From a virus (taxonomy: Duplodnaviria; Caudoviricetes): a stretch of 40,001 bases of DNA. The first letter of the stretch is position 1; every line of letters begins with the position of its first letter. The translations under genes were made by a program, and so were the position numbers. The stretch is taken from positions 1-40,001 of the IMG/VR virus record IMGVR_UViG_3300035003_000006; one strand, 5' to 3'. The notes beneath the pieces were generated by a model that worked only from the letters and a program-made list of their open reading frames with translations, searched no databases and had not been told where the DNA came from. Shown here in pieces: positions 17,878-40,001 of the stretch.

Positions 17878-17879
17878 GT

Positions 17880-18866: not shown

Positions 18867-18869
18867 ATA

Positions 18870-19040: not shown

Positions 19041-19061
19041 ATAGCAATGATACCACGGCCA

Positions 19062-20202: not shown

Positions 20203-20206
20203 ATCG

Positions 20207-20767: not shown

Positions 20768-20866
20768 ACTATTCGCAGCTTACGGTTGAGGCTGATATAA
20801 AGGTCGATTCCATATTACCTAGCCATTGTATCACCGCCGATACTATACAGACGCGCCAATTCATAC

Positions 20867-22966: not shown

Positions 22967-22970
22967 ATGG

Positions 22971-23306
22971 TTATATTATAGCCCTGAGCGACATCCCTAT
23001 GTCTGGGACGAAATCGAGCGTGACGGTAAGGGGGGTGTAAGTGAATCCTGCGTCTTTAAAATAGGTCGCACCATTTACCACGATGTACTGAGGTTCTGAT
23101 GGTACGGAGAAGCTGGCGGTTATGCCGTCCACGGCCTCGGATAAGTCCACTACTGTCGGCCGGAAAGTAGCCTTGAGCTGCCCTACCGTCACCTTGAATG
23201 AGGTACCAGCCGGATCGCTGGTAGTGTCGGATACATCCACGATATGCAGCAAATCCGCATCATTAAGCGTGGCTATGGCAGCTAGATCAGTGAGTTTTCT
23301 TTGCAT
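22971..23306 (-). CDS. Virion accessory protein
   Basis: KLTDL..IAT...DLL.IVDVSD...GTS.KVT anchor-type motif; located in the head operon. Confidence 0.65.
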   Translation of the reverse strand: MQRKLTDLAAIATLNDADLLHIVDVSDTTSDPAGTSFKVTVGQLKATFRPTVVDLSEAVDGITASFSVPSEPQYIVVNGATYFKDAGFTYTPLTVTLDFVPDIGMSLRAII

Positions 23307-23309
23307 AGG

Positions 23310-23531
23310 CTAGTTAAAAATGAAGGTATTGCCATCTTGGAATAAGTATACCTCGCCGTCCTGGAACAGCTTGATGGAGACCGGAGCAACACACAAATCA
23401 CCGTATGGCTGCGCTGCGGCAGAATACGGGCTTATGGCGTCAGTGTAGGGGGATGGCGCTGGATTATATGGACGGGCAGCGTCGGAATAAGGGGATGATC
23501 CGGGTGTGAATGGTGGGACACAGGAAGGCAT
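23310..23531 (-). CDS. Small PY-heptad repeat protein
   Basis: Five PY repeats at 7-residue spacing, then two LFQDG motifs. Confidence 0.7.
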   Translation of the reverse strand: MPSCVPPFTPGSSPYSDAARPYNPAPSPYTDAISPYSAAAQPYGDLCVAPVSIKLFQDGEVYLFQDGNTFIFN

Positions 23532-23533
23532 GG

Positions 23534-23926
23534 CTAGGATTTAGTGAGCTCCCCCTCCTTGATCGGCTCAGACACCTTAGCATCCCTGATCGCCACGTAT
23601 GCGGCACGCTTAGCGGCCAAAACCTCGGGCTGGGGCACGCCAAGAGCCTCCTCCTGGATCAACACCGCCAGCTCCTCCCGCAACGCCTCTAGGGGCGGTT
23701 TCTTGGCATCTGGCGAGGGTGGGACGGGGGTCAGGGTGACAGGGCCGGGGACGATCTCCTCAAGCGCCTGGTCGCGGGCGGCGAGGTTGGCAATCATCTC
23801 CCGTATCTTAGCCTCCATCTCTGCCTTCGTACGTACCTGAAAGCGGAAGTACGAAGCGTTAGACAGCAAAACCGTCACCTCGATGAGGTCACGTTTCGGT
23901 TCCACCTTGATGATCTCTACGTCCAT
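23534..23926 (-). CDS. Hypothetical protein
   Basis: 130 aa ORF in the head operon. Confidence 0.7.
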   Translation of the reverse strand: MDVEIIKVEPKRDLIEVTVLLSNASYFRFQVRTKAEMEAKIREMIANLAARDQALEEIVPGPVTLTPVPPSPDAKKPPLEALREELAVLIQEEALGVPQPEVLAAKRAAYVAIRDAKVSEPIKEGELTKS

Positions 23927-23995
23927 GGCGATGGGCTTAGCTTGGTAATGCTGCGGAGCTCGGGCTGAGGGCCGACGTATCGGCCCCCAAGCGAG

Positions 23996-24241
23996 CTACT
24001 TAGCTTTCTTCTTCGGGGTTTCCCCTTCGGCTTCTGCTACTTCTGCTCCCTCTACGTGCAATCCACCCTTCATCACCTGGTTTAGACCGTAGTCATTGAG
24101 CCATGTGATAGCTACCGTCTCCTGCTCGGCCAGCTCTGGGGTCTTCACCCAGGCACTAAGCCAAGTTAGGCCACCTTCTCCTACCGCGATTACCTTGGCG
24201 AATGTGCCTTGGTAATGCTCAATAATTTGACCAACAGTCAT
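23996..24241 (-). CDS. Hypothetical protein after the capsid gene
   Basis: 81 aa; starts 1 nt after the MCP stop; followed by a hairpin at 23957-23996. Confidence 0.7.
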   Translation of the reverse strand: MTVGQIIEHYQGTFAKVIAVGEGGLTWLSAWVKTPELAEQETVAITWLNDYGLNQVMKGGLHVEGAEVAEAEGETPKKKAK

Positions 24242-24242
24242 A

Positions 24243-25547
24243 CTATGAGGCTAGGTTAGTCTTGATAGTAGCAAAGGTACCAGTCAAGAAGGCTCCGTTG
24301 TCGTTTGCTCGTACGTAAGAGGCGAGACGGCGTCGGAGTTTAACTGTGATGATGTCCTTCACAAAGTCGGTACCATCAGAGTTGGTGATCTCAATCTCTA
24401 CGCCACCCTTTCGACGAACATGCAGCTTGCGGAAGTCTCCCATGAGGAAGGTACCAGCAGTGATTGCAATGTTTTCGATTACTACAGCGCCACCTACACG
24501 CATACCATCTCGGGTATAGAACGGAGGTAGGACGTATTGGCCGGTCGTGTCCTTGGTAAGGTCCATAGCTTCGATATCGATCGGGTTAAGGATGATATTG
24601 GTAGCGCGGAACTTGCCCTTACCTGTCGTCGCAATCTTAGTAAGACCGATGCGAAGCACGTCAAAGTGCGATGCGCCTACAAGGATTTGAGCGCCGATAA
24701 GTGAGTTAAGGTCAGTTGATACACCAAGCACGCCTTGGAGCTGCGGAGCGGTACCGTTACCAGAGAGAAGCTGAGTATCAGTGACGATATTCACATCCTC
24801 GGCTAGGAAGCTCTTGATTGCAGCTACAAGCCCTGGACCATCATTAAGAAGCTCAACAGAGTGCTTGTTCGTGACGGTAATCTTCTGCACTGGCTTCTTG
24901 AACTCCTGGAAGGTGAAGTCCTTCTCAGGCATGGTTGCGAGCTCAGCGGTTGACGCTGGCGCACCAGTCTCAGTCACCACTTCTACCCATGACACGTTGT
25001 CCGAGGTTGTCTCAGCCGTGTCAGCGATCTGCTCAATGAACACATCACGGACAGGGTTTCGGGTAAGGGCTGGGTCAAGGTCAGGTAGGATAACATCACC
25101 AGTCAAAGACACCTTCGATACACTCTTAGCGAGGTAATCGAGGTCGGCCTTGCTGTTGATCTCAAACTGAACGGTACTACCAGTCTTGGTAGCGACGTCC
25201 TTCAAGCCCTTGGTGACGGCTTCGACGTCAAACGACGCTTTCTGCTCGGTCTGGGCCACTACAGTTGCGGTCTTCCCTTGAGCCTTCGTCGCTACAGCAT
25301 CAAAGAATTTCTCTACCGCTTCGGTAGTCTTCTCAATTTGGGCTACTACCGCAGTGTCGCCAGTCGCCATAGCTTTACGCATGGCCTCGGAGAGCATTTT
25401 GGTAGCTTCATCAACACCACTCTCGATATCAACCGCAGTTGTATCGTCAGCAGTTACCTCTACGTCAGCGCCATCCTTCTTAACGAGGGCGCCTTTCTCA
25501 TCACAGTAAAATTTCTTACCGTTGATGAGCTTAAAAAACTTCAACAT
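24243..25547 (-). CDS. Major capsid protein, HK97 fold (start 25547 or 25580)
   Basis: N-terminal delta-like region; SVELLND, LLSGNG..PQL.G, KD..GQY, GDF and F.KD motifs. Confidence 0.95.
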   Translation of the reverse strand: MLKFFKLINGKKFYCDEKGALVKKDGADVEVTADDTTAVDIESGVDEATKMLSEAMRKAMATGDTAVVAQIEKTTEAVEKFFDAVATKAQGKTATVVAQTEQKASFDVEAVTKGLKDVATKTGSTVQFEINSKADLDYLAKSVSKVSLTGDVILPDLDPALTRNPVRDVFIEQIADTAETTSDNVSWVEVVTETGAPASTAELATMPEKDFTFQEFKKPVQKITVTNKHSVELLNDGPGLVAAIKSFLAEDVNIVTDTQLLSGNGTAPQLQGVLGVSTDLNSLIGAQILVGASHFDVLRIGLTKIATTGKGKFRATNIILNPIDIEAMDLTKDTTGQYVLPPFYTRDGMRVGGAVVIENIAITAGTFLMGDFRKLHVRRKGGVEIEITNSDGTDFVKDIITVKLRRRLASYVRANDNGAFLTGTFATIKTNLAS

Positions 25548-25602
25548 AACAATAAAGTTATTGATTAAAAGAGCACCCATTTCAGGGGTAGAGTGGTATT
25601 GC

Positions 25603-26253
25603 TCACTTTTTAAGTTGTCGGATTGCCTTGTTCAAAAGCTCTATGGCGTTGCGCTTGCGAGCTATCGCAGGGTCAGCCACCTCGATGCTTTCCTCGATTT
25701 GCTTTTTAGTATCGATAAGGGTCTGAGTTGTTTCCTCAGCGGATTTGATGAGTGCGCGACGGTTAGAGCCGATGCCTACCAGTGAGCATTCGATAAGCTC
25801 ACACTCCTTGAGGACAAAACAGTCACTCTCTTCGTCGTAATCAACGATATGCGGCATGAAGCCGACACTGACCATGTTGAGGTCGCCGCGTACTAGGTGA
25901 TCCCATGCCCGCTGGATGTCGGGGTGAACCGCTACGGCAAACTCAGCTTCGCCTAGAAGCATCTTTTTACCTGGGTTTTCTGGGTCGTTCTCAAGCCATA
26001 CCCGTAGCCACTTCCCGAGAGGGTAGTCGCTTGATCGGTGATTGAAGAATAGGGGGGCGTTCTTCTCGAAGTGCTCTAAGCGCCAGGTGTCCTGGTCAAC
26101 AATGTCGCCGTGACGATCTACGCTACAGGTAGACATGACAAAGATGGCTGTGTGGCGCTTCTCATCGAGGGTGACTGCTCGCTGCACGATGTCGATATCA
26201 ACACGCTTGCCGATCATCTCCTGTGCTGCTTTTTGTTTGAGCTCGATTTTCAT
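25603..26253 (-). CDS. HK97-family prohead protease
   Basis: DRHGDIV, LFFNH, SVGF and ELIECSLV...SN motifs. Confidence 0.93.
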   Translation of the reverse strand: MKIELKQKAAQEMIGKRVDIDIVQRAVTLDEKRHTAIFVMSTCSVDRHGDIVDQDTWRLEHFEKNAPLFFNHRSSDYPLGKWLRVWLENDPENPGKKMLLGEAEFAVAVHPDIQRAWDHLVRGDLNMVSVGFMPHIVDYDEESDCFVLKECELIECSLVGIGSNRRALIKSAEETTQTLIDTKKQIEESIEVADPAIARKRNAIELLNKAIRQLKK

Positions 26254-26260
26254 ATGCAGA

Positions 26261-26839
26261 TTATAACAGATGGCTAAAACGGCGTGCTTTATGGCCGTAT
26301 GTGTCCGTTGTTTTATGGCAGGGCTTACATAATGTCCGACCGTTATCTATTGCAAACCTCAGCTCGGGAAAATATGCGAATGGCTTTATGTGATCTGCTT
26401 GTAGCTCCCTCTTTGTTCCACACCATATACATTTGAAGCCGTCTCGGTAAAATACTGACCTTCGCCATAGATCATATTCAGCGCTTCTCCTTATACGAGC
26501 GTTTCTGGGGGAGCTGCACTGATCCTCTGGTTTTCGGATACCCCTGTTCCAGCCTCGGCCTTTCGCTAAACCTGTGGTATTCATGTTTTTGAATGGTCCG
26601 CGCCGACCTCTATTCCAGGCGGGCTGCCCCATCCTCGAAGCAGATAACTTCCTTCGAGATTGCGCGGACATTGGCTTGCCGCGATTATGCGAGGGCTTAC
26701 CAAAATTAGGGTTTTTACTCCCCAGCTTAGTCTGTCGTATTAGCTCCCGTGTTTTCTCTGATGGAATAACACCGGCGGAGTTTTTGTTTCCCATTAATGC
26801 TTTGCGAATTTTATCCTTTGTTTGTTGTGAGTGAGCCAT
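26261..26839 (-). CDS. NUMOD3-HNH homing endonuclease
   Basis: HS.QTK.KI repeats, WNRG, RDGFKC..CG, ADHIKP and NGRTLC.PCH. Confidence 0.9.
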   Translation of the reverse strand: MAHSQQTKDKIRKALMGNKNSAGVIPSEKTRELIRQTKLGSKNPNFGKPSHNRGKPMSAQSRRKLSASRMGQPAWNRGRRGPFKNMNTTGLAKGRGWNRGIRKPEDQCSSPRNARIRRSAEYDLWRRSVFYRDGFKCIWCGTKRELQADHIKPFAYFPELRFAIDNGRTLCKPCHKTTDTYGHKARRFSHLL

Positions 26840-26858
26840 ATAGTCATTAGTGAATTAG

Positions 26859-28874
26859 CTATACAGCAGGCCCCAAAACGCAACGACATGAAATGGAGTG
26901 CTCCGCTGGGTAGTGCTCCCCATTCGGGAACGCCTCGCCCTTCGCTACAATCACACCTCCATTAAGGCCACCTGACGCCACATCCTTGTGGTCATCCCGC
27001 ACATTGTCATCCCCGACATTAATCCATTCCTTTCCTACCACCACGGCACTCTGGTTGTAGGCGTCATTGGTGGCTTTGGAGAGAATGAAGCCTGTCTCGG
27101 TGCGAGCTATAGTCTTAGCTCGCTTCACTGTCATATCGTCGAAGTAGTCACGGATAGAGCGGCCGATTTTGTCGATGCCATCTCCGTTTGCTACCCCATC
27201 CACAATCTTGCTCTTGAGCACCTCGTACGTGGTATCGATGATCGAGCCGGTGAAGAACGCTGCTCGGCCTTCCATCGATGCCAACAACTCCTCATTGGTA
27301 AAGAATTGGTCGTCAGCCTTGCGGAAAAGGGCGTCTAGCGCCTCCTGACCACTCTCCTTGTACATCTTCACCATAATCGGGGTGAAAGTGGCCTTAGCGA
27401 GCGATTTCTCGCCAATTACGTCCATAAACAGGCCGGGTGTGAGGTCGGTAGCAAGGATGCGTTCCAGCATTCCCTTGTGGAAGGCGTCGATTGCCTCTTT
27501 GAAGACATCGGCTTTGCGGTCAGCCTTCTCGTTGTACGCCTTCGCATAACCTTCCTTGAGGGCCTTGGTGGCGAAGATGCTGCTCATGCTGCGCTTTGGC
27601 TGCGTCATGAGCGTGAGGTTCACGATTTCCTCGATGGCTGCGAGCTTGCGGACCAACGACGGTCGGGCGCGTAGGAAGCGCTTGGCCTGCTCTTTTACGG
27701 CCTCACTAGGGACCGCTGGCGACGGCGTGTTGGTGAGCTCGTCCCCACCTTCTAGCGCTGGGTAGTCGTACATAGACCGGGCTTCGTTGGCGGTGATGAT
27801 GCCGCCCTTCTTGAGCTCGGTCGTTTCCTTGAGCTTGAGCTCTCGATCTACCGGGACCGGATCGGTGAAGGCGAAGAAGACAGCCTCATCCATCTGGGGA
27901 ACCAGGCGGTTGTTGAGGATGTCCATGAATGCCTCGAATACGGGGACCACGGCCTCCTGGAGATACATCCGGTAGGCTTCCTTGGCGTTGGCGAGGTTCA
28001 CATCGTCTGACGTGACCATGGCCTTCGGGACATGCAGGGCGGCGAGGATGTCATCACGCAAGAACTTCTGCGTCTCGATGAAGTCCATCTCTTTCGGGGT
28101 CTTGTTGAGCTCCTGGACTGCCTTGATGTTGCTGCCGAAGACCGCCACCTGGCCTCCCTCTCCGCGGCCGAAGATGCTCTTCCATTTCGCACGGAAGGTG
28201 TGCCCTGCCTCCTCGTCCACCACCTGATCGGCAAAGACCGCCATGTCTGGGCGTCCTTGGTTCTTGAAGAACTTCGCCTGGTACTTGGTGGCCTCCTGCT
28301 CGGTGAGGATGCGTGAGCTCGCTGGGCGTACTACCCCGACACCACGCAATGGGTTGATCGGGTCAATATTCCTGATATGCAAAATGTCTTCCGGGCGGAA
28401 GCGGACCACTGTGCCGTGGTTGTACTCATAGGAGAGAATGGTGGTCTGATCTGGAGAGAGCACAATCTGCACATGGTCGGGGCGAAGCGATAGAAGCTGC
28501 GTAATCCGGCCATTCTCACGATGGGTGTATATGAAGCAGTCACCTGATAGCAGGTAGTAGGTGAAGGCGAGCTCTAGGAACTGGCGCTGTGTCTCGAAAG
28601 GGTTGGGTGTGCCTAAAAGGCTGAGGATAGGGTGATCGAACACCTCCACCACGTCGCCGCGCTTGTTCTTGATGCGGTAGAGCTCAAGGGGAATGCCAGC
28701 GGCACGCTTACTGATCTTCGATACGGCAATGTAGAGGTAGAGGCTGTCTTTGTATGAGCCAATGTTCTGAATGTCGGCCGCGTTGTCGAAGCCTGAAAAT
28801 GTCTGATTAACCCCGGTTAAGAGCGCTAAATTTTTGGTCCTTCCCCTGAACAGCCGCTTTATTAGATTAGGCAT
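26859..28874 (-). CDS. HK97-type portal fused to Mu gpF/SPP1 gp7 head morphogenesis domain
   Basis: LL..PNP, LRPD.V, ILH.R, ITANEAR; C-terminal IARTET, KEW..GD..VR..H and CRC. Confidence 0.93.
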   Translation of the reverse strand: MPNLIKRLFRGRTKNLALLTGVNQTFSGFDNAADIQNIGSYKDSLYLYIAVSKISKRAAGIPLELYRIKNKRGDVVEVFDHPILSLLGTPNPFETQRQFLELAFTYYLLSGDCFIYTHRENGRITQLLSLRPDHVQIVLSPDQTTILSYEYNHGTVVRFRPEDILHIRNIDPINPLRGVGVVRPASSRILTEQEATKYQAKFFKNQGRPDMAVFADQVVDEEAGHTFRAKWKSIFGRGEGGQVAVFGSNIKAVQELNKTPKEMDFIETQKFLRDDILAALHVPKAMVTSDDVNLANAKEAYRMYLQEAVVPVFEAFMDILNNRLVPQMDEAVFFAFTDPVPVDRELKLKETTELKKGGIITANEARSMYDYPALEGGDELTNTPSPAVPSEAVKEQAKRFLRARPSLVRKLAAIEEIVNLTLMTQPKRSMSSIFATKALKEGYAKAYNEKADRKADVFKEAIDAFHKGMLERILATDLTPGLFMDVIGEKSLAKATFTPIMVKMYKESGQEALDALFRKADDQFFTNEELLASMEGRAAFFTGSIIDTTYEVLKSKIVDGVANGDGIDKIGRSIRDYFDDMTVKRAKTIARTETGFILSKATNDAYNQSAVVVGKEWINVGDDNVRDDHKDVASGGLNGGVIVAKGEAFPNGEHYPAEHSISCRCVLGPAV

Positions 28875-28890: not shown

Positions 28891-30039
28891 CTATGCGATG
28901 AGGAGGCCCGCCTTCTTGCGTACCGCACCATACCTGACGGCATCTAGGGCATGGTCAAAGCCTCCTACTGGGACGTTCAGGCTCTTACCTTCTTTATCCA
29001 TCATCCAAACGTAGTTCCGATATTCCTTGGCTAGGTCGGTACTGCGCTTGGTGTAGCTGATCGATTGAGACTGGAGATAGTCGATACCTTGGTTGACGCT
29101 GCCCGGTCCCTTCTCGGCACCGATGATATTCACGCCAAAATCCCTTATCTCGGCAATCGACTTAGGCTCTGAGCTATCAGCAATTACCAATGTGCCTGGC
29201 TCTGGAAGGGCAAGAATGTGGTTCGCGATGGGTTTATTCTTCATCCCTGTGCGATAAAGTTCCTGGTCTAGGATGATACCGCCATTGTAGTCGTAGATAG
29301 CAATGATCGCGGTAGGGTCGTTTGTGTAGCCGAAGTCCTGCCCACGGGTACGCAAGCGGGCTTCAAAAGGTATAGATTCAAGTTCCCGCCAGCCGGTGTA
29401 GATGCGCCCTGAGACTTCACCTAGGAGACCAAGGCCATACACGCGCCACCACTGCTCGCGGTGCTTGTTCATCTCAATCTTGCGGACAACCTCGGGCTCT
29501 AGGGCCTCGTTATCTTTATAGGTGAGGATGATGTGGTCATACATTTCCTGCGGCCAGTGACCCAAAATCTCATTGTGGAACCAGAACTCGGAACTTGGAT
29601 TAAAGTCGATCATGTAGAGCTCGCGCGTACGCACGAATGTCTGATCGAAGGCTGAGAAGGGATTGTTGTTGGCTTCATTCAGAAGCGCCCGGTCCCGGCG
29701 AGCACCACGTAGCTTGTCGCCGTCATCGGTACTGAAAAACTCGATGATGGAGCCGGTCTCAAACCGATACTTACGATCCGTGGCGTTCCAGCGGGCGTCC
29801 TTCCAGTAGCCGTGGCCCTGCATGATGTTTTGGAAATCGAGCATCGCACCTCGTTTGAGGTTTGGGATGCTGTCAGCCATGATTGAAGTTAACTTTGGTG
29901 TTTTGTCCCGCTGAGACAGGTCTATGAGTTTTGAAATAGCACTTATCGTCTTAGACGCACTAGTACCACCCTGGAGCACCTGGAGAGGCTTACGCAGCCT
30001 CAGTACCTTTCGGGTCGCTGTCGTTATCGAGTAGTGCAT
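28891..30039 (-). CDS. terL: Terminase large subunit, PBSX-like
   Basis: QGGTSASKT, LNEAN, DFNP, DFGYTNDP, ADSSEP and DHALDAVRY motifs. Confidence 0.95.
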   Translation of the reverse strand: MHYSITTATRKVLRLRKPLQVLQGGTSASKTISAISKLIDLSQRDKTPKLTSIMADSIPNLKRGAMLDFQNIMQGHGYWKDARWNATDRKYRFETGSIIEFFSTDDGDKLRGARRDRALLNEANNNPFSAFDQTFVRTRELYMIDFNPSSEFWFHNEILGHWPQEMYDHIILTYKDNEALEPEVVRKIEMNKHREQWWRVYGLGLLGEVSGRIYTGWRELESIPFEARLRTRGQDFGYTNDPTAIIAIYDYNGGIILDQELYRTGMKNKPIANHILALPEPGTLVIADSSEPKSIAEIRDFGVNIIGAEKGPGSVNQGIDYLQSQSISYTKRSTDLAKEYRNYVWMMDKEGKSLNVPVGGFDHALDAVRYGAVRKKAGLLIA

Positions 30040-30550
30040 AGGCTAAAAGAGGGGTAGGTAGCTTTTCGTTGAGACTGGTTAGGTCCAACTTGTCACCATA
30101 TTTCTTCGGTTTGAGCTTTGAAGCGGTCCACTTGCGAGTGTCAACCCGTAGGCGTGAGCGCTGGATGTGCTCGGCGTTAACGACGGTAAAGATCTCACCG
30201 TCCTGACGGTATTTCTCGATGTAGTCATTGGTACCATCATCAGCAATTTCAAGCATTTCCTCCACCATTAGATCAGCTTGGATATCTCGCGCCACTTTGT
30301 ATTGTTCCAGAAAGTCCTTTTTATCCTCGTCCAATAGCCAGTACATGACTGTTGAAATGGCGGGCATGTCATACCCACGGCAAATAGAGCGGAGGCTTTC
30401 ACCCTCAGCCAAACGTGCACAGATTTTCTGAGATAGTTCTGGGGTGAAGACTGAGGGCCGACCCATCGGCTGCTCTGGGTCAGGAACTACAACAAGTTCA
30501 GCGACATCGGCGGGCTTCTTAGTTTTCTTTGGCTTTTTGGCTCTTGCCAT
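29990..30550 (-). CDS. terS: Terminase small subunit
   Basis: GRPS, IC.RLAEGESLRSIC, LEIADD and RLRVDTRKW.ASKL.PKKYGDK motifs. Confidence 0.93.
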   Translation of the reverse strand: MARAKKPKKTKKPADVAELVVVPDPEQPMGRPSVFTPELSQKICARLAEGESLRSICRGYDMPAISTVMYWLLDEDKKDFLEQYKVARDIQADLMVEEMLEIADDGTNDYIEKYRQDGEIFTVVNAEHIQRSRLRVDTRKWTASKLKPKKYGDKLDLTSLNEKLPTPLLAYALLDNDSDPKGTEAA

Positions 30551-30613: not shown

Positions 30614-31327
30614 TCAGACGGTCTCGCAGAAACCGTCAATGATCGTGTGGATGGTCTGGGTGGCTTGGGGGTTCTCAGCCACCTTGCCGCGCAGGGCGTA
30701 CGTGGCGGCATTGAAGAGCCTCCATGCAGTCTCCCCGCCCCAATCATGCGGAGGCCGTTCGTAGGCTTCCAGGACATCCGGGATACGGCCTTGGTTGATG
30801 GCACCCCGCTTGTAGAAGCGCATGATCGCGTCATGCACCTCGGGTTCCAGCATGGGGCGGCCCCGGTAGTTGTCGATCTGGTGCGCCTGGGCGATGCGCT
30901 TCTGCTGGAGCGGCTCCACAATCTCCATGACGATGCCAGGGAGGTCGCGGCGGGCGTTGATGGTGTGCTTGCGCTTCACCACCGTCTCGCCGTTGAAGGC
31001 CGTGTTGTCGCAGACCAGCACCCGCGAGCCGAAAGCCAGACCAACGGGCCAGCTCTTGTCGTGGCTATTGCGGAGGCCGAGCGTGTCCACGTAGTCGCCG
31101 TAGGGCGAACGCAGGGACATGACACCGAAGTAGCGTTGACCATCGGGCATGATGGCGTGGTGCTCTTCGACAATCTCGTGTTGGTGGTAGCCGAGGGCAT
31201 ACCGAACCATGTTCACGAGCTCGTGGTGCGGGAGGGGGACATGCGAGGCCGTAGCCTTGGGCGTGTCCACCTGGCGCAGTTCGTCGTAGTCCACCAGCCG
31301 GGCTCCGGCATGGATGATGAGGCTCAT
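30614..31327 (-). CDS. DUF932/DUF945-family protein
   Basis: H.P.PH, LGLRNSHDKS, G.RV.VCDN..F, KRKHT and W.LFNA.T motifs; AGGAG SD. Confidence 0.88.
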   Translation of the reverse strand: MSLIIHAGARLVDYDELRQVDTPKATASHVPLPHHELVNMVRYALGYHQHEIVEEHHAIMPDGQRYFGVMSLRSPYGDYVDTLGLRNSHDKSWPVGLAFGSRVLVCDNTAFNGETVVKRKHTINARRDLPGIVMEIVEPLQQKRIAQAHQIDNYRGRPMLEPEVHDAIMRFYKRGAINQGRIPDVLEAYERPPHDWGGETAWRLFNAATYALRGKVAENPQATQTIHTIIDGFCETV

Positions 31328-32578: not shown

Positions 32579-33112
32579 TCAGAACTTCCACGACGATGGG
32601 AGCTGCACGTCAGTGACGCCCAGATACCCAATGAGGGTTCCGTCAGGCAGCCGCACTGGCCACGCGACTTTCCCCTTCATAATGCCTCGTGGTGCGAAGC
32701 CACACCCGATGCGCTTGGCGTCCTCCGGCTCGATGCCAAGGGCCACCACCGCCTCGTGGTCAGTTTCAAGGTAGTCGAGAGGCTTGAAGCCCTCACTGGG
32801 CTTGTCTCCCCTCGTGCTCTTTTCCGGCGATGTGGCCTGGTTGCCGACGATGTAGGCCGCTGCCTCCTTGGGAGAACAGCCGCGCACGAACGACACCAGG
32901 CTCAGAACGTCCCCGCCTTTTTGGGCCGGGAAGCTGTACCAAGCGTTCTTTGCGGGGGTAATCGCCATGCCTCGCTCATCCCCCTCGCCGCTAGGGCATT
33001 GACACCGGAAGGCGGCACCATGCGGTTTGAGCTTGAGGCCCAGCCGCGCAGCAACACTTTCGATGCTATGCTCCGCTTTTATCTTGGCAAAGTCGTACTG
33101 GTAACTGGACAT
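32579..33112 (-). CDS. DnaG N-terminal (CHC2-like) protein lacking TOPRIM
   Basis: I..V...LG, CP, WYSF....GGDVL.LV and GKVAWPVR..DG..IGY.G; GGAGG SD. Confidence 0.85.
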   Translation of the reverse strand: MSSYQYDFAKIKAEHSIESVAARLGLKLKPHGAAFRCQCPSGEGDERGMAITPAKNAWYSFPAQKGGDVLSLVSFVRGCSPKEAAAYIVGNQATSPEKSTRGDKPSEGFKPLDYLETDHEAVVALGIEPEDAKRIGCGFAPRGIMKGKVAWPVRLPDGTLIGYLGVTDVQLPSSWKF

Positions 33113-33143
33113 TTTGCACCTCCACGGGTTGTACGTCCGTGGT

Positions 33144-34052
33144 TTATAGTAACACCTCCTCGCCTGTATCTAGTCGTATAGCAGGGAGGCCAGCTCGCAA
33201 CCAAGGGACACTAAATAGGTCAATGGTAGTATCGAGCTGAAACAGGAAGATATTAGACTTCCCCGCCACCTCCTCTACCACTGCAATCTTCCCCCGTAGC
33301 TGCTCCATGGTGGCAGCAGTCACCAGTACCCGAAGGTTCTCAATACCTAGCTGCTTTTGGTACACCTTGCTCTCTACGATGATGTTCTGGTAGGCGAGCA
33401 CCTTGCGTAGAAAGGAAGAGGCGCGGAAGTGCGACCTTCGAGGGCGGCTTTCGTTCTCCGCTTCCAGTACGTAGTAGCGTCGCTTGTCTGTATCGAGGGC
33501 AAAGAAGCCGTCAGCTCGTACCCCTTTGCTATACGTCTCCACCCGGCCGCTTGGGAAAGTGTAGGTGAAGGTGCAGGGGAGTTTCAGCGGGTCAGGGAGC
33601 TCGTTGTGTTCCAGCAGCTCCTCTTGGGTGATGAACGCCTTGCCCGCACCCGCTTCGATGGAAGCCAGCACGTCGCAGATTTTCAATTGATGGGTGTGGT
33701 AGCGGCGGGCTTCACCGGGAGGCTGGGTGAAGTGAGCAACCACCTGGTGCGGCTCGATGCCATGGCCTTTGAGAAGGGCACGGCCCTCCGGGGTGATGAA
33801 GTGCTGCACCTCAGCAAAGGGGTTGGCCCGCTGCTCGGTGCGACGGCCCATATACCCGCTGCGGTAGAGGAGCTTGAGCTGGATGCGGATACGCTTAGGG
33901 CTACGGGCGGGCAGCAGCTTATAAAAGCGCGAAGTCTGCACCGTGTCGTACCGGGCGGCGATGGCGAGTATGTCAAGGACGTTCTGCGTGAGGTCGTAGT
34001 TGGGTGGCTTCGGCCCACGGGCAAACCGTCCGATACGCTTCTTTGGCTCCAT
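33144..34052 (-). CDS. Replication-relaxation (Replic_Relax, MOBC-like) relaxase
   Basis: N-terminal winged helix (LT...IL, L..LY..GY, ITPEG), H.L.I.D, DGFF, LEAE, K..AY and RVL motifs. Confidence 0.85.
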   Translation of the reverse strand: MEPKKRIGRFARGPKPPNYDLTQNVLDILAIAARYDTVQTSRFYKLLPARSPKRIRIQLKLLYRSGYMGRRTEQRANPFAEVQHFITPEGRALLKGHGIEPHQVVAHFTQPPGEARRYHTHQLKICDVLASIEAGAGKAFITQEELLEHNELPDPLKLPCTFTYTFPSGRVETYSKGVRADGFFALDTDKRRYYVLEAENESRPRRSHFRASSFLRKVLAYQNIIVESKVYQKQLGIENLRVLVTAATMEQLRGKIAVVEEVAGKSNIFLFQLDTTIDLFSVPWLRAGLPAIRLDTGEEVLL

Positions 34053-34134
34053 ATTTCCTTGATTGTATCACGGACAGTCAAGGACAACGGTTGCTATGGG
34101 ACGGTATGAGACAAGTGTCGCTTATGGATGTGAG

Positions 34135-34153
34135 TGAGGAAGTATCACGCTTT
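34135..34153 (+). repeat. 19 bp direct repeat, copy 2 (TGAGGAAGTATCACGCTTT)
   Basis: 18/19 identical to 32518-32536. Confidence 0.8.
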
Positions 34154-34272
34154 GTTACTCCCCCACTCCCCCACCGGGTGTGCCGGTCAAAACGGGGTAG
34201 GAGAGGGGCAGAAACTTTTTAGAGCGACATACACCTAACAGGGAAGGGGCCGAGATAAGGCTATAAACAAGG

Positions 34273-35835
34273 CTAATCTTCAACCATGAAGGTTTTTCCA
34301 TCAGTTGTAGGTTTTGGTGTTTTGAGAGGGGTCTGTTTCACTTCGGGGGGTGTCTCGGGTTGCCGAGATTTCGGGCCGTAGAGCTCCCGCATCTCAGCCT
34401 GTATCTGTTTGAGGTTTTGGAGTGGTGGTACCTTCTCCAGCCGCCCAAACTCTACCGGGTATTCACGAAAACCAATGTCACGGAAGTGCGCTGCGAACGT
34501 GCCGCGCTTCACTCTGTCTAGGTAACTGGTATCAACGCGCATCTGCTTAGCGAATACCGCAGCGTCACTAGCCGACACTCCCCCGCACATCTTTATCGCC
34601 GTGGTACCCATCATCACGTCGCGGAGCTTTGCCGGTAGGTCTGACAGGGTTTGGTGCGCTACGATCATGCCCAGCTCAAACTTCCTAGTCTGTCGGAAGA
34701 GGTCAAGCAGGATAGCGTCCTCACTGGCGTAATCGGCGTACTCGTCAATGTACATATACGTCCGCCGCCTGGTGCCTTCCCTTTGCATCATCGCATTGAG
34801 TATCTGCGCTATCCAGAGGCGACCAAAGAGCATGGCCTGTCTCTGGCCCATGTACGCCTTAGCGGTGTTGATGAGTATGACCTTCCCGCTGTCTAACGCC
34901 TTGTTGATATCAATACTCATCTCATCGGCCATGAGCATGGTTTGCAGGGTCTTGTCAGCCAGAAGTGCCTGGAGGCGGCGTGCGACTTCCCCACGGCTGT
35001 CACGGTATTCCCCTTTAGGGTTCGCGTACTCCATATAGAAGCCTCTCTCCACTGGCCCCATGTCGGCAAGCCGAACGATGGAGGCAGGGTTCTGGAGGGC
35101 CTCTAGGAAGTCACCCATCGTGCTCGGGGTGCTCAGCATGTAGCGGCAAAGGTAGTCGAACATCCCTTGCTGCTTTGAGGTCATCTCAGCGCCGATAGCC
35201 GATAGGGCGTAGGTAAGGAGGGCTACGCGGCTCGTGAGGTTCGCTGTGGTGCCTGCAAACACGTTGAAAGCCGGGGGACAGGTAGCCGGGTCAATCAGGA
35301 TAAGGCGGTCGTACGGTATGCGCCTCGCTAGGTTGTTGATGAGGTCGTTTTGGCTGTCTATCACCACGATGGCGGCATTAGTCTCCAAATCGTCCAAAAC
35401 CATATTTTGAAAAAGCTGTGACTTCCCCCAACCAGGTGGCCCTACTACCCAGTGGTGTTGGGTACGTAGGTTTTCGGGAATGATGGGTTTAGTTGGTTCT
35501 ACAGGCTCAGGTGGTGCAGGGACCGCCTCGGGTTGTGAGAGATGTAGAAAGCGCTGGAAGCGGACCGCATCTACAAACATAAAAATAACCGTCACCGCCA
35601 TGATAAATGGTAATAGGTAACCGATGAAGCCAATCAACATTGATGGATGTGTGAATATAAGGATTCCAATAGTGGACATAACCGCAGCAAATATGAACAT
35701 TGCAATATGGGACGGGAGTATGGGCTCAAAAGGGCTTTTGTAGGGAGGTCGTATATACCACTCAATGCCAATCCAAAATGTGCCAATCGCTACTAGTATT
35801 GCTACAATCCCAACCACATATTCCATGACAGGCAA
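34273..35835 (-). CDS. VirD4/TraG-like coupling ATPase with three N-terminal TM helices
   Basis: H.WVVGPPGWGKS Walker A, VIDSQ, YMYIDE Walker B and RKF.LG..VAHQ. Confidence 0.9.
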   Translation of the reverse strand: MPVMEYVVGIVAILVAIGTFWIGIEWYIRPPYKSPFEPILPSHIAMFIFAAVMSTIGILIFTHPSMLIGFIGYLLPFIMAVTVIFMFVDAVRFQRFLHLSQPEAVPAPPEPVEPTKPIIPENLRTQHHWVVGPPGWGKSQLFQNMVLDDLETNAAIVVIDSQNDLINNLARRIPYDRLILIDPATCPPAFNVFAGTTANLTSRVALLTYALSAIGAEMTSKQQGMFDYLCRYMLSTPSTMGDFLEALQNPASIVRLADMGPVERGFYMEYANPKGEYRDSRGEVARRLQALLADKTLQTMLMADEMSIDINKALDSGKVILINTAKAYMGQRQAMLFGRLWIAQILNAMMQREGTRRRTYMYIDEYADYASEDAILLDLFRQTRKFELGMIVAHQTLSDLPAKLRDVMMGTTAIKMCGGVSASDAAVFAKQMRVDTSYLDRVKRGTFAAHFRDIGFREYPVEFGRLEKVPPLQNLKQIQAEMRELYGPKSRQPETPPEVKQTPLKTPKPTTDGKTFMVED

Positions 35836-35837
35836 CC

Positions 35838-36173
35838 CTACTTCAAGCGACGCTGAGAATTATCAGTACCGCGTAGCGGTGAGGGTGTTGATTTAGGTAG
35901 AAAACAGACAATAACGGTAATGCACCACCAAACCACCACGGGGAAGAGACCGCCCTCCTTTATCCAGTCTAGGCCAAAAACAGGCTGGAAGTTACGCGCC
36001 CACACGACGAGCACGAAACCAAAAACCGATATACCTAAGAGAATTGTAAACCAGTCGCCATCTAGCTTGTGCCAGGGGACCAGTTGGCGACGGCTTTTCA
36101 GGTACCAAGCCACAGCACACATCGTCCATACGGTAGGACTATACAGAAACGCCTTTGCTGCTACCTCGTACAT
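35838..36173 (-). CDS. Three-TM membrane protein (likely start 36173)
   Basis: 111 aa hydrophobic ORF between the two ATPase genes. Confidence 0.7.
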   Translation of the reverse strand: MYEVAAKAFLYSPTVWTMCAVAWYLKSRRQLVPWHKLDGDWFTILLGISVFGFVLVVWARNFQPVFGLDWIKEGGLFPVVVWWCITVIVCFLPKSTPSPLRGTDNSQRRLK

Positions 36174-36181
36174 CCCGCCCC

Positions 36182-37291
36182 CTACATGAAATTGCGGCGC
36201 ATTGTCTCTTCGATGTACGGGCGGCTCTCTGGGAATCGCTCCGGGTCGAAAGACACAACCGTAACGTCTCTGTCCCCCTTGCGCCATGGGAATTTTCGGT
36301 AGGTGAAGTCAGGCAAGTCTTCGAGATTTACCGACAGTGCGTTTTCAGGGAACCACTTTTGATAGCGCCGAGCGTCATCGTCAGATACCCGGAAGACGTG
36401 GCTCTCAGCGTTCCCTTTGAGCGCGTCAAACAGCTCGTTGTCTAGCTGACTGGCAAACTGGTTGATGCACACCAGGTTGACGTGGAACTTACGGATGCCG
36501 GTGAGCATCTCTTGGAGGATGTCCGGTGCCCACGTATGGCACTCATCGGCCACGATGTAGAACGGGGTGGTGGTGGTGCGGGACAGTGCCGCGACCTGGG
36601 TGAGTGCGAGTAGCATGTTCCCTACCAGCCGCACATTCTCGTCTCCCAGCGCTCCCGTAGGTAGCCGGGCGATCAGGATTTTGTTGTTTAGGACAACATC
36701 AAACAGGTCGAGTTTTGTCTTTTGGCTATCAAAGACACGAGAAAGGTCATCGTCGGCACGGAGTTGGTAGAACTTATTGTAGGTTGATTTTATTAGCTCC
36801 CATTGATCTCTGGCTTTGAGTGTGCTCATAAAGTCCCAATGTTCTTTTCCGGCACGGTTAAGCATCGTACTAGTGAATGTGTCTCTTACCGCTTGGTCGG
36901 TAAGGAATGGCGGGATGTCCAAGACGGTGCCCTGTCCGATAAGAGCGAGGACGGAAGCGTGTACGGTCATGTCCATGTTGGCGGTAGCAGCGTCAGGCAT
37001 TTTGGCGAGTGAGCGGACCATCGCCACGAACGCTTTAGCGGTGAGGGAATTGTATTGTGGCTGTACGTCAAAGGGGTTCCACTTAAGCGGAAACTCGTAC
37101 GGGTCGAATAGTAGTGTTTCCTTGCGCCGTGATTTCGGAATAGTGTCGAGTAGGTCAGTGGCGTCCTCGCCATGCTTGTCGAGGAATAGTAAGCCGCATC
37201 CCGCGCGTATCGCGGAATTGATAAGGTGTTTGGCGTGTGTGCTCTTGCCCGTCCCTGTGCTGCCTAGAATGTGGGTGTGCGCCATAACCAC
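36182..37291 (-). CDS. Soluble VirD4/TraG/HerA-like ATPase
   Basis: HTHILGSTGTGKST Walker A, LDKHG, YIVADE Walker B, RKF...NQ..SQL and FRVS.DDA. Confidence 0.9.
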   Translation of the reverse strand: MVMAHTHILGSTGTGKSTHAKHLINSAIRAGCGLLFLDKHGEDATDLLDTIPKSRRKETLLFDPYEFPLKWNPFDVQPQYNSLTAKAFVAMVRSLAKMPDAATANMDMTVHASVLALIGQGTVLDIPPFLTDQAVRDTFTSTMLNRAGKEHWDFMSTLKARDQWELIKSTYNKFYQLRADDDLSRVFDSQKTKLDLFDVVLNNKILIARLPTGALGDENVRLVGNMLLALTQVAALSRTTTTPFYIVADECHTWAPDILQEMLTGIRKFHVNLVCINQFASQLDNELFDALKGNAESHVFRVSDDDARRYQKWFPENALSVNLEDLPDFTYRKFPWRKGDRDVTVVSFDPERFPESRPYIEETMRRNFM

Positions 37292-37917
37292 AGCACCACC
37301 AGACCAGTAGAGCCGCGTGTGGTGGCACGGTTATCTGGTGGATGGTTCTGTGGTTAAGGAACAAGTCCAAGTTGAATTGTACCGTGTCTTTTAGAACTGT
37401 CCCCCGAAACGTGTCCTAGCGATAGCGCCGTGACCAACCACGTTTAGCAGCCGCAGTCTTCACGGTAGGGAAGCAAGGTTGGAAACGTGGTTGGTCACGG
37501 CGTGTAGCCGGGGACACGTTGAGGGGGAAGCGTTGTATCTCCTGGCCTCCGGCCGGAAATAGCCTCTACCAACATACGTCAGTGTATAAGTGAGCGGTTT
37601 TGGTATATGTGTGGTATAGTTGTAGTGTCGTTGGTTGATGGGGGAGCCGCTAGGCAATTGTTTTGAGGTGACGTACAGCCTTCGTTGGTCAAAAGGCCAA
37701 CAAAGTCACTTCCCCACCAGCCCGCGACGCATTGTTAGTAGAGTAGAGTGGTGGCGGTAGGGTAGTGAAAAATAGGGCATCGGGCTACCTATGCCAGCAC
37801 ACCCACTGATATACATGATGTTGCAATCTGTATGGAAATACTCTAGCGATCGTTTCCTACGATTCTTACGTACTCGGAACACCGGGTCTATCGCGCCCAC
37901 TCTACCCTGCTTGCAAT
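37285..37917 (+). other. Non-coding array of long stem-loops (ssDNA origin/promoter or ncRNA)
   Basis: Perfect 20 bp inverted repeat 37426-37445/37483-37502 plus three further multi-stem domains. Confidence 0.75.
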
Positions 37918-38078: not shown

Positions 38079-38516
38079 CTATGCAGCCATGTAGTGACCC
38101 TTGCTAGGAGTGGTGATCTTCCCCTCCTTGGTCAAAGCCGCCACGGCATTGCTGATGCTCTGCTCAGCCGCCTTGTCGGTAGCACCCATCGCAGTGAGCA
38201 AGTCCTTCCGGCTGATGCCGTCCTTGTTCTCCGCGATCTTGGCGAGCACCGCTTCACGTACGCCTGCTTTGCGAGGCTTCCGGGTACCAGTGGAAACACG
38301 GGGCTTCTTCGCCTTCGGTTCCACCGTTGCCGGGTGCGGGTTGAAGTAGCTCTCGATGCGGTCGAGCTTGCCGTCAATGACAGCGAGCTCTTCATCGATG
38401 GCGGCGCGACGTGCTTCCACTTCCTCGCGTTGCTTGGTGAGCTGTTCTTTAGCCCTTTGCATGAAGGCGTCGGGGTCTTCTTCCTTGCGGGCCTTGGCGG
38501 TTGCTACTTCGGACAT
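38079..38516 (-). CDS. Coiled-coil plus C-terminal winged-helix DNA-binding protein
   Basis: Heptad N-terminus, K/R/P-rich linker, then REAVL..I....GISRKDLL...SISNAVAAL.KEGKI....GHY; AGGAGG SD. Confidence 0.8.
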   Translation of the reverse strand: MSEVATAKARKEEDPDAFMQRAKEQLTKQREEVEARRAAIDEELAVIDGKLDRIESYFNPHPATVEPKAKKPRVSTGTRKPRKAGVREAVLAKIAENKDGISRKDLLTAMGATDKAAEQSISNAVAALTKEGKITTPSKGHYMAA

Positions 38517-38705: not shown

Positions 38706-38897
38706 TTAGGAGCTTTCGCGTGCGCTGATGCGTAGCTGCAACCAGGTAACCACTTCATCCTTCACCCACCCAACCCTCGCTTGCCCCAGGCGCACCCGTT
38801 TAGGAAACTCTCCTTTGGCTTCGAGGCGGTCGATGTGAGCTGGGGAATAGAGCACCAGGTCACGCACTTCACGCTTTGTGAGTAGTATTTTCATCAC
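38706..38897 (-). CDS. alpA: AlpA-family excisionase/regulator
   Basis: LL.KREV...V.YS..HI.RLE..G.FPKRVRLG..RVGW...EV..W. Confidence 0.92.
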   Translation of the reverse strand: MMKILLTKREVRDLVLYSPAHIDRLEAKGEFPKRVRLGQARVGWVKDEVVTWLQLRISARESS

Positions 38898-38927: not shown

Positions 38928-40001
38928 CTAGCCCGGTTGGTGCCCAGGCGAGGGGACTGTAGCCGAAATGACTGGGGTTATCCAGTTCTCAAATGCAGTG
39001 ACCGCGCGGCGCATCTCATCGATGTATTGATACCTGTTATAAGTGCGAGCTACCCCGGATATCTGCCCGGTAGCGTGGTTGAGAAGGGCCTCAATGATGT
39101 GAGGCGGGGTGCCAAGCTGGGCGTGTACTGTAGCGTAGGTACGCCGAAGGTCGTGTAGCGTCCATTTTGCCACTTTAGAGGCGGTATCAAGCCTCGCCTT
39201 AGACTTTCCCCATCCTACCCATTTAAGAGGCGTATCGAGTAGATTTACTGCTAATCCAGGGACAGGAAAGGTGTGGGTGCGTTTGTTTTTCGTATGCTCG
39301 GCGGCAATGGTCACTAGATCATCGGCTAGTACCATGTGCTCCACTTCCCCGCGCCGTTGTCCTGTGAGCATGAGCACCTTCACTATCCTGCCGAAGTCAT
39401 CGTCTGGACAGGCGTGCCAGATAGCTTTGAGCTCGTCGGGGGTGAGTACACGCTCCCGGCTGTCGTTCTTCGCTGGGGTGGTGAGCTTCTCAGTCGGGGC
39501 GTCATCAATGAGATGCTGCTCGACGCACCAGTTGAAGAACCGTCGCAGGGTGACGAAGGCGTAGCGCTGCTCCATCGGCCCCTCAAAGCGCTTGAGCTGC
39601 TTGAGCACGTCCCTGGGGGTGATGTCAGCGAGGTTGCTGCGTCCCCAGTCCATGCGGTTGAGGCGGGAGCGGTAGCCTGCCAGCGTTGACGGTCTCACCG
39701 TCGCTTCACTGAGGAACCGCGTGCGGGCGTCCTCGTAGGCGAGGAAGCGGGGCTTGGTCTTCCCTAGCGTCTTCTCAGCGAGGAGCCTCTTCGCCTCGGT
39801 GCGGGCTTCTGCGAGGCTGATGATAGGGTAGCGGCCGATGGTGTGCCGTCTCCCTTTGCCGATAAGGACCAGGAACGTCTTGCTCTGCTTCCCTACCCGG
39901 ACACCGAACCCGCGCGGCGCAGTGTCCCAGATCATCGTGTGCCCGGCAGGTGGGTTGGGGGCGGAACGAATGGCGATGTCGGTGATGGCCTTTTGCACCA
40001 T
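38928..40001 (-). CDS. int: Tyrosine integrase, P4-like with arm-binding domain
   Basis: WD...GFGVRV...SKTF arm domain; TGQRRGE, KN, HDLRRT, LNH and YNRY catalytic motifs. Confidence 0.97.
   Translation of the reverse strand: MVQKAITDIAIRSAPNPPAGHTMIWDTAPRGFGVRVGKQSKTFLVLIGKGRRHTIGRYPIISLAEARTEAKRLLAEKTLGKTKPRFLAYEDARTRFLSEATVRPSTLAGYRSRLNRMDWGRSNLADITPRDVLKQLKRFEGPMEQRYAFVTLRRFFNWCVEQHLIDDAPTEKLTTPAKNDSRERVLTPDELKAIWHACPDDDFGRIVKVLMLTGQRRGEVEHMVLADDLVTIAAEHTKNKRTHTFPVPGLAVNLLDTPLKWVGWGKSKARLDTASKVAKWTLHDLRRTYATVHAQLGTPPHIIEALLNHATGQISGVARTYNRYQYIDEMRRAVTAFENWITPVISATVPSPGHQPG

What the first reader, a model, noticed from the sequence alone, without database searches (positions are those of the whole stretch)
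32579..37291. Complete virion phage carrying a relaxase and two coupling proteins but no mating-pair genes
Seen: between the integrase and terminase sit a soluble VirD4-like ATPase, a 3-TM protein, a membrane-anchored VirD4-like ATPase, a Replic_Relax relaxase and a primase N-terminal fragment. All are co-oriented and appear intact, and no VirB-type channel gene is in the window. Known: relaxase plus T4CP without Mpf genes defines mobilisable elements, and this is not an expected part of a siphophage. Inference: the genome has two transmission routes, virions and ssDNA transfer through a borrowed type IV secretion channel.
Basis: partly seen in the sequence, partly recalled or inferred. Interest (0 to 1): 0.92.

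Follow-up and report, generated by a model that had tools for sequence, protein, structure and literature searches.

The report
Temperate phages with built-in conjugation module
A family of tailed prophages, mostly in Alphaproteobacteria, keeps a relaxase-family gene, coupling-protein-like ATPases and a conserved long DNA hairpin inside the same integrated unit as its virion genes, so these phages likely spread both as particles and by borrowing another element's conjugation channel.

Summary
The order int-alpA-(HTH)-ATPase(s)-relaxase-CHC2 recurs in 18 of 18 IMG/VR loci (relaxase beside CHC2), 16 with head genes downstream, across at least five unrelated head modules. In three bacterial genomes the module and virion genes lie between one pair of tRNA att repeats (38.5-39.8 kb) with one integrase, and one 39.4 kb record is circular. 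A tandem island-plus-prophage or a misassembly is therefore not the explanation. The relaxase is a PF13814/MOBC-type wHTH-nuclease with invariant D181/E197; the large ATPase models closest to TrwB/VirB4, ahead of HerA. New here: a 120-225 nt strictly Watson-Crick-covarying hairpin (window 37396-37533) sits upstream of the ATPases, one per element: a candidate oriT/origin. The same module forms capsid-less att-bounded defence islands (18-20 kb), interleaved with phages in the relaxase tree, and the ATPase-relaxase pair also sits on plasmids that have their own Rep. No other initiator, helicase or primase was recognised in nine phage genomes (one weak hit), so the relaxase probably also starts phage replication. 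Nicking, transfer and virion production are untested.

The parts
38928..40001 (-). Tyrosine integrase with Arm-DNA-bind_3 domain; the only integrase hit in the window
38706..38897 (-). AlpA excisionase/regulator
   Evidence: PF05930 3e-9
38079..38516 (-). Coiled-coil plus winged-helix protein, present in many relatives
37396..37533 (.). Conserved long hairpin (perfect 20-bp inner arms 37426-37445 / 37483-37502); candidate oriT and replication origin
   Evidence: (z -8.2)
37353..37381 (-). -10-like TACAAT (37381-37376) followed by a recurring GGAC..GTTC leader motif; likely promoter of the ATPase-relaxase operon
   Evidence: seen by eye in the flanks printed; not scored
36182..37285 (-). Soluble VirD4/VirB4-like ATPase; absent from the module in 9 relatives
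35838..36173 (-). Small membrane protein (2 clear hydrophobic segments), no homolog in related loci
34273..35826 (-). Membrane-anchored TrwB/VirD4-like ATPase, next to the relaxase in 37 loci
33144..34052 (-). PF13814/MOBC-type relaxase: N-terminal winged helix, C-terminal restriction-endonuclease-like domain, H121/D181/E197/E199/K217/Y221
32579..33112 (-). CHC2 zinc-ribbon protein, DnaG N-terminal part without Toprim domain
30614..31327 (-). DUF932 protein, recurring cargo downstream of CHC2 (ArdC occurs at this place in several relatives)
28891..30550 (-). terS and terL
10958..28874 (-). Portal-Mu_F fusion, protease, capsid, adaptor, tail tube, tape measure, tail proteins, amidase
6234..10011 (-). 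Erf, SSB, RusA: recombination/replication accessories; no initiator, helicase or primase hit

Best explanation
This is one att-bounded temperate phage whose early region is a MOBC-type relaxase module, and it likely moves by two routes: in its own virions and as a single strand passed to another element's type IV channel. Shown: one integrated unit, intact catalytic motifs, TrwB-like fold, conserved hairpin, capsid-less and plasmid versions of the module. Inferred steps: Int/AlpA excise a circle; the relaxase binds and nicks at or near the hairpin; rolling-circle synthesis, perhaps helped by the CHC2 protein, SSB, Erf and RusA, supplies DNA for TerSL packaging (no other initiator recognised); alternatively the membrane ATPase takes the nicked strand to a helper T4SS, with ArdC/DUF932-type cargo aiding establishment. 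Loss or gain of the virion block converts between phage and a mobilisable defence island.
For: Relaxase upstream of CHC2 in 18 of 18 IMG/VR loci, ATPase in 17 of 18, head genes in 16 of 18. One att pair and one integrase around module plus virion genes in Novosphingobium aquae (17-bp tRNA-Leu repeat, 38.7 kb), Palleronia KMU-117 (48-bp tRNA-Asn, 38.5 kb) and a Proteobacteria MAG (42-bp tRNA-Lys, 39.8 kb); G011 is 39,420 bp with 123-bp terminal repeats. D181 and E197 in 108 of 108 homologs, E/D199 in 94 of 108, matching the DEE motif of MOBC (PMC6736028, passages). ATPase model: Foldseek TrwB E 4e-14, TM 0.69, against HerA 2.5e-10, TM 0.57; VIA VirB4 Z 27.8 (rmsd 3.0, 315 aligned), TrwB 27.1 (3.6, 342), HerA 21-22; 23 of 33 members hit TrwB_AAD_bind. 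MOBC plus own VirD4 without Mpf is the known signature of mobilisable elements (PMC5704250, PMC5357655, passages). The ATPase-relaxase pair is also on plasmid pRS11DPr5 and on record PP438423, which have their own Rep initiators, and on a Sulfitobacter plasmid; on pRS11DPr5 a weak hairpin match (E 0.043) lies 0.5 kb upstream of the relaxase. Hairpin: 79 cells changed on both sides against 2 on one side; found in 10 loci outside the training set and 6 more; none in 8 terL-only control loci. ArdC downstream of CHC2 in 6 loci by Pfam.
Against: No nicking, transfer or virion was observed; the window is integrated with flat depth. The window relaxase has no PF13814 hit itself. A sequence profile of the ATPase ranks HerA (4e-7) and DptH (6e-7) just ahead of TrwB (1.7e-6), and VIA ties VirB4 with TrwB, so 'coupling protein' is not proven. 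A crude hydropathy scan finds no membrane segment in many of the large ATPases (0-5 segments). The hairpin model missed 4 phage loci searched twice (L038, L042, L045, L047) and the Sulfitobacter plasmid stretch. A VirB4-type helper (PF03135) was found in 3 of 5 host genomes, only 1 of the 3 with the phage form. Since no other initiator is recognised, replication alone could explain retention of relaxase, hairpin and CHC2. No covalent MOBC-DNA intermediate has been shown (PMC12857230, PMC6736028, passages).
Confidence: 0.55

Rival explanations
1. Replication only: relaxase, hairpin and CHC2 form the phage's origin and initiator, and the ATPases act inside the cell (strand displacement, membrane tethering, or handing DNA to packaging). 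There is no conjugative route.
For: No initiator, loader, helicase, primase or polymerase hit in 9 phage genomes apart from one weak phrog_3926 hit (6e-8) in G001 and a proofreading-type exonuclease in G011. The module sits where int-alpA-primase blocks sit in P4/PICI-like elements (recalled). G014 has further VirD4-like ATPase genes among its recombination genes. Several large ATPases show no hydrophobic segment.
Against: The same ATPase-relaxase pair is kept on replicons with their own Rep3-type initiators and on capsid-less islands. ORFs under 70-125 aa and ORFs across stretch borders were not scanned, so an unrecognised initiator is possible.
Confidence: 0.2
2. Helper-independent DNA donation: the two ATPases and small membrane proteins push DNA out without a borrowed VirB channel (TdtA- or Ced-like), and the recipient takes it up by competence or vesicles.
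For: Two paralogous ATPases in 24 of 37 loci; best NCBIfam hit of the soluble one is CedD (7e-10, far below cut-off); 2 of 3 phage-bearing hosts lack a VirB4 hit.
Against: The membrane protein is not conserved and the second ATPase is missing in 9 complete modules; no conserved channel candidate was seen.
Confidence: 0.12
3. Anti-phage pair: HerA-like ATPase plus restriction-like nuclease carried as a defence moron.
For: PADLOC mad8 6e-16 and 3e-12, HerA only at the Walker A region; HerA first in the sequence profile; capsid-less forms carry other defence genes.
Against: Fixed position between alpA and terminase, linkage to the hairpin and CHC2, TrwB-first fold match, relaxase-family nuclease.
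Confidence: 0.06
4. A mobilisable island integrated in tandem with an unrelated prophage, or a misassembly.
For: Capsid-less att-bounded islands with the same module exist; such tandems are common (PMC5704250, passage).
Against: One att pair and one integrase in three genomes; a circular 39.4 kb record; all 7 phages in the window's relaxase clade (97/97) share the window's portal type at 53-63% identity.
Confidence: 0.02

Closest known systems
MOBC + VirD4 mobilisable elements (CloDF13; streptococcal IME class 8, Rel_PF13814)
   Same: PF13814-family relaxase next to its own VirD4-like ATPase, no Mpf genes, site-specific integrase (PMC5357655, PMC5704250, passages).
   Different: Full head, tail and lysis genes inside the same att pair; tyrosine integrase with AlpA; often a second ATPase; a truncated primase-like gene; alphaproteobacterial hosts.
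pAD1 TraX / oriT2 (MOBC prototype)
   Same: Restriction-endonuclease-like DEE active site (PMC6736028, PMC12857230, passages). The nic site of pAD1 lies in a large inverted repeat of about 140 bp (recalled from Francia and Clewell 2002; paper not held, concerned the 2013 paper and failed).
   Different: pAD1 is self-conjugative; its five direct repeats near nic were not seen here (exact repeats of 13 nt or more were not conserved); no sequence comparison with pAD1 was made.
P1-like phage-plasmids and their mobilisable derivatives
   Same: Conversion between virion and conjugative mobility; mob or oriT in 30 of 38 derived plasmids (PMC10879196, passage).
   Different: There mob/oriT is found in only two intact P1-like phage-plasmids; here relaxase, ATPase and hairpin are core genes of intact integrative prophages with several head types.
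P4 / PICI / cf-PICI satellites
   Same: int-alpA-...-primase-like-terS gene order (recalled).
   Different: Own terL, tail and lysin; relaxase and ATPases in place of primase-helicase.
Frpo/ssi single-strand promoters
   Same: Long imperfect hairpin more stable on the template strand of the downstream genes (27 of 27); Frpo description in PMC11541004 (passages).
   Different: No consistent -35/-10 pair inside the stem; the -10-like hexamer lies outside it; it precedes transfer genes rather than leading-region genes.

Membership tests
MOBC / PF13814 relaxase | Match to PF13814 | tested here: inconclusive
   Window protein: no hit at E<=1; 3 of 5 close homologs hit; 4 of 5 syntenic relatives hit at E<=1e-3, 3 at or over the cut-off.
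MOBC / PF13814 relaxase | D-x(n)-E-x-E acidic triad in a restriction-endonuclease-like domain after a winged helix | tested here: met
   D181, E197 in 108 of 108; E/D199 in 94 of 108; model pLDDT 96 with wHTH matches; FokI, MunI, PfoI only weakly (E 0.01).
MOBC / PF13814 relaxase | Site- and strand-specific nicking at oriT | not testable with these tools
   Needs purified protein.
Type IV coupling protein (VirD4/TrwB) | RecA-like ATPase with Walker A/B and all-alpha insertion, TrwB-like fold | tested here: met
   VirB4 ties.
Type IV coupling protein (VirD4/TrwB) | N-terminal membrane anchor | tested here: inconclusive
   About 3 segments in the window protein; 0-5 in relatives by a crude scan; the soluble paralog has none.
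Type IV coupling protein (VirD4/TrwB) | Binds relaxosome and T4SS channel | not testable with these tools
   Needs two-hybrid, pull-down or mating assay.
Integrative mobilisable element | att-bounded, own integrase, relaxase, no Mpf | tested here: met
   (att sites shown in relatives; the window record is trimmed inside them).
Integrative mobilisable element | Transfer in trans by a helper | not testable with these tools
   Mating assay needed.
Temperate tailed phage | Complete packaging, head, tail and lysis gene set | tested here: met
   holin and CI-type repressor not identified.
Temperate tailed phage | Infectious virions containing the module | not testable with these tools
   Only indirect: circular 39.4 kb record G011.
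HerA-type defence ATPase | Closest fold and profile match to HerA, with Sir2/NurA/DUF4297-type partner | tested here: not met
   TrwB ahead of HerA in both fold searches; partner is relaxase-family; sequence profile alone is ambiguous.
Known structured RNA (Rfam) | Match of the hairpin to an Rfam model | tested here: not met
   No match over 37396-37533 at E<=5.

The most novel reading that the evidence does not exclude
A class of 'phage-IMEs': integrative tailed phages that use one MOBC relaxase and one hairpin origin both to replicate for packaging and to hitch on foreign conjugation channels through their own coupling protein, and that repeatedly turn into capsid-less mobilisable defence islands. 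They could cross receptor barriers by mating and then spread as virions.
Probability: 0.45. Interest if true: 0.92.

Novelty: new variant of a known kind. Interest (0 to 1): 0.8.

Why it matters
Virion transfer and conjugation are usually treated as alternative mobility types, with conversion between them described as loss of one and gain of the other. A conserved phage family that keeps both gene sets in cultured hosts (Novosphingobium aquae, Palleronia KMU-117) makes dual mobility directly testable. It also supplies a covarying candidate oriT for the poorly understood MOBC relaxases, a possible new phage replication mode, and an origin for a set of alphaproteobacterial defence islands. MOB-suite calls both named plasmids with this pair non-mobilizable, so the module is missed by current typing. 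It is rare: 1 of 400 other genomes of the class sampled.

Tried and rejected
Window relaxase alone found nothing in IMG/VR or GenBank phages; the CHC2 protein found nothing in phages or plasmids by tblastn. Deep alignments A5 and A6 were too diverged for pattern scans of some collections. terL-anchored scan: only 1 of 30 loci (75% terL identity) carried the module; the other 29 (47-58%) did not, many being short. Relaxase fold searches were filled by winged-helix proteins; the nuclease domain was not folded alone, so no solved relaxase match was tested properly. Complex prediction of ATPase domain with relaxase gave no answer. The 24-nt imperfect direct repeat flanking relaxase and CHC2 had no counterpart in relatives. 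An RNA reading of the hairpin is not excluded but is disfavoured: G-U in 62 of 1076 trunk pairs on the antisense strand and 24 of 1036 on the sense strand, no U-tract, no Rfam hit; I put it near 0.1-0.15. No att or excision junction can be seen in the trimmed window. Record PP438423 'Microcystis phage' was examined as a possible isolate of this family and rejected: no head-gene hit, Rep3 and ParA instead. Four look-ups in earlier scan findings returned nothing. Ten literature searches (open-access library only, no supplements read) found no description of this phage family.
Full report
Observation. The record is a gene-trimmed virus record of 40,001 bases with nearly all genes on the minus strand. 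From the right end: integrase, AlpA, a winged-helix protein, a soluble P-loop ATPase, a small membrane protein, a membrane-anchored P-loop ATPase, a 302-aa protein, a CHC2 protein, two unknowns, DUF932, terS, terL, portal-Mu_F, HNH, protease, capsid, neck and tail genes, amidase, Erf, SSB, RusA and a restriction-modification pair. No Mpf gene and no second integrase was hit. One Logan contig of 59,390 bases holds both tested halves without a break, extends 19 kb beyond the window start at the same depth, and ends 148 bases past the integrase start; the element is therefore integrated in that sample, which may be the window's own source.

The relaxase. The 302-aa protein has no Pfam hit, but 3 of its 5 nearest homologs hit PF13814, as do 4 of 5 syntenic relatives tested. 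A profile finds 1,827 cluster representatives at E<=0.001. In 108 aligned homologs H121, D181 and E197 are invariant, position 199 is E or D in 94, K217 in 107 and Y221 in 96. The model (pLDDT 96) has an N-terminal winged helix; restriction enzymes appear only weakly for the rest. PF13814 equals MobC in CONJscan terms (PMC5357655, passages), and MOBC enzymes use a DEE motif like restriction enzymes (PMC6736028, PMC12857230, passages).

The ATPases. Walker A and B are kept in both paralogs across relatives. Sequence profiles do not separate HerA, DptH, TrwB and DotL. The model of the large ATPase matches TrwB first in Foldseek (E 4e-14, TM 0.69; HerA 2.5e-10, TM 0.57); VIA gives VirB4 27.8, TrwB 27.1, DndH 25.3, DotL 25.0, HerA 21-22. 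The Atlas neighbours are TrwB_AAD_bind/DUF87 clusters, two of them mostly viral, and structural neighbours include Patescibacteria proteins. The large ATPase lies next to the relaxase in 37 loci; 24 have a second one; 9 loci with a complete upstream region have only one. The small membrane protein has no homolog in relatives.

The family. A CHC2-anchored scan of IMG/VR gave 18 loci: all 18 have the relaxase upstream, 17 an ATPase (one is cut), 16 have a terminase, portal or capsid hit within 10 kb. Head types include the window's portal-Mu_F type, Mu-like portals, an SU10 capsid, a lambda GpA terminase and Phage_capsid_4. This collection is selected for viruses. In GTDB genomes 24 of 31 loci have the relaxase (the rest are 4 DnaG hits and 3 partial cases); 3 of the 24 have head genes within 10 kb, and several others are cut short. 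In metagenomes 14 loci of 3 kb or more have relaxase plus CHC2 and 6 have head genes, one being the same element as an IMG/VR locus. Hosts are mostly Alphaproteobacteria, with Halioglobus and a few others. The CHC2 family was found in 1 of 400 further genomes of the class.

One unit, not a tandem. In Novosphingobium aquae, Palleronia KMU-117 and a Proteobacteria MAG, the module and the virion genes lie between one pair of tRNA 3'-end repeats, 38.7, 38.5 and 39.8 kb apart, with one integrase inside. G011 is 39,420 bases with 123-base terminal repeats. Many CHC2 homologs sit on contigs of 36-40 kb. In the relaxase tree (40 rows, none dropped; 7 unclassified rows not counted) the window's clade (97/97) holds 7 phages, all with the window's portal type at 53-63% identity, and 4 capsid-less rows. 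Phage and capsid-less labels need at least 7 changes over the tree. Two capsid-less forms are att-bounded: Tropicimonas S265A 19.6 kb at tRNA-Arg and Dinoroseobacter S76 18.4 kb at tRNA-Leu. Capsid-less forms carry type I RM, CBASS, Abi_2, kinase/PP2C and methylase genes. The other 'capsid-less' labels rest on 5-10 kb of downstream sequence. The tree is unrooted, so loss and gain are not told apart.

A cis element. A perfect 20-bp inverted repeat lies upstream of the first ATPase. The same place holds an inverted repeat with a GACC/GGTC core in 17 relatives, and each extends to a 120-170 nt hairpin with an outer TTCCGC...GCGGA stem; the window copy folds at z -8.2. Over 24 pairs in 18 sequences, 79 cells change on both sides and 2 on one side (the structure was derived from these sequences and they are related, so the controls overstate significance). 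A model built on them finds one copy per element in 10 further loci and 6 more, always between alpA/HTH and the first ATPase, and none in 8 control loci; it misses 4 phage loci. The template strand folds more stably in 27 of 27, with few G-U pairs, and Rfam has no match. This fits a DNA hairpin. I recall that the pAD1 MOBC nic site lies in an inverted repeat of about 140 bp; that paper was not seen. A single-strand promoter or origin is the alternative role.

Replication or transfer. In nine phage genomes (window, G001-G003, G011-G015) PHROG scans of the non-structural ORFs found recombination and nuclease genes but no initiator, loader, helicase or primase, except one weak initiator hit in G001 (short ORFs and some stretches not scanned). 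That points to the relaxase, hairpin and CHC2 as the replication system; relaxases of integrated elements are known to start autonomous replication (PMC5714925, passage). But the ATPase-relaxase pair is also kept on replicons with their own Rep: pRS11DPr5 (with a CHC2 protein and a weak hairpin match upstream of the relaxase) and PP438423, and on a Sulfitobacter plasmid. ArdC and DUF932 recur downstream of CHC2; their link to conjugative elements is recalled, and the leading-region paper read did not name them and found no leading-region enrichment for MOBC (PMC11541004, passages). A VirB4-type helper was present in 3 of 5 hosts. The most economical reading is one nicking system serving both packaging-bound replication and helper-dependent transfer (0.55); replication only is the main rival (0.2).

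Literature. Ten full-text searches of the open-access library found no description of such a phage family. Seen as passages only: PMC5704250, PMC5357655, PMC11389934, PMC12282955, PMC10879196, PMC12857230, PMC11541004, 10.64898/2026.01.13.699239, PMC5714925, PMC6736028, PMC11104534. No supplements were read; subscription papers and supplementary lists of prophages or IMEs could hold these elements. The nearest precedent is P1-like phage-plasmids, where mob/oriT occurs in only two intact elements (PMC10879196).

Verdict. A real, conserved and rare phage family built on a MOBC-plus-coupling-protein module with a candidate oriT, interconverting with defence islands. The architecture is shown; dual mobility is likely but untested. 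Interest 0.8.

Noticed in passing
window 38674-38929 (-): Rfam Trans44_sRNA (Ruegeria) matches over the alpA ORF at E 4e-12, below gathering; the curated 'sRNA' may overlap an alpA gene of a similar element.
   Followed up: no
L166 (PP438423.1): GenBank 'Microcystis phage Mwe-JY31' (22 kb, 35% GC) shows Rep3, ParA, DUF932, VirD4-like ATPase and a relaxase homolog but no head-gene hit in 14 CDS tested; it looks like a plasmid.
   Followed up: partly
L162:1885-3843 and 7620-8858 (G014): Further VirD4-like ATPase genes among the recombination genes of one relative, far from the module.
   Followed up: partly
window 32579-33112: The CHC2 protein keeps only one invariant cysteine (C39) and ends before a Toprim domain; probably a non-catalytic DNA-binding or host-replisome adaptor.
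   Followed up: partly
window 32518-32541 and 34135-34158: 24-nt imperfect direct repeat (88%) flanking relaxase and CHC2; no counterpart seen in relatives.
   Followed up: partly
window 37353-37381; L050, L051, L054 upstream of first ATPase: Recurring TAnAAT followed by GGAC..GTTC and, in some, a second inverted repeat beginning TAACGGTAGC; possible regulated leader.
   Followed up: no
window 4748-6237 (+): Methyltransferase and type II restriction endonuclease on the opposite strand; G013 has a different RM pair at a similar place.
   Followed up: no
whole window: No CI-type repressor or holin was hit among the 61 ORFs scanned in PHROGs.
   Followed up: no
G001:C9 50961-52154; G005:C5 202205-203236; G013: In some members the integrase lies at the far end of the element, opposite in orientation, so attP falls between int and alpA; G001 has a second int-alpA element just outside its att site.
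   Followed up: partly
L071, L054, L051, L052, L050: Capsid-less versions carry CBASS (SMODS, SAVED, E2/ThiF), type I RM, kinase/PP2C, Abi_2 and a C5 methylase.
   Followed up: no
L072: A partial CHC2-family match without relaxase in a Ca. Kaiserbacteria MAG; the ATPase's structural neighbours also include Patescibacteria proteins.
   Followed up: no
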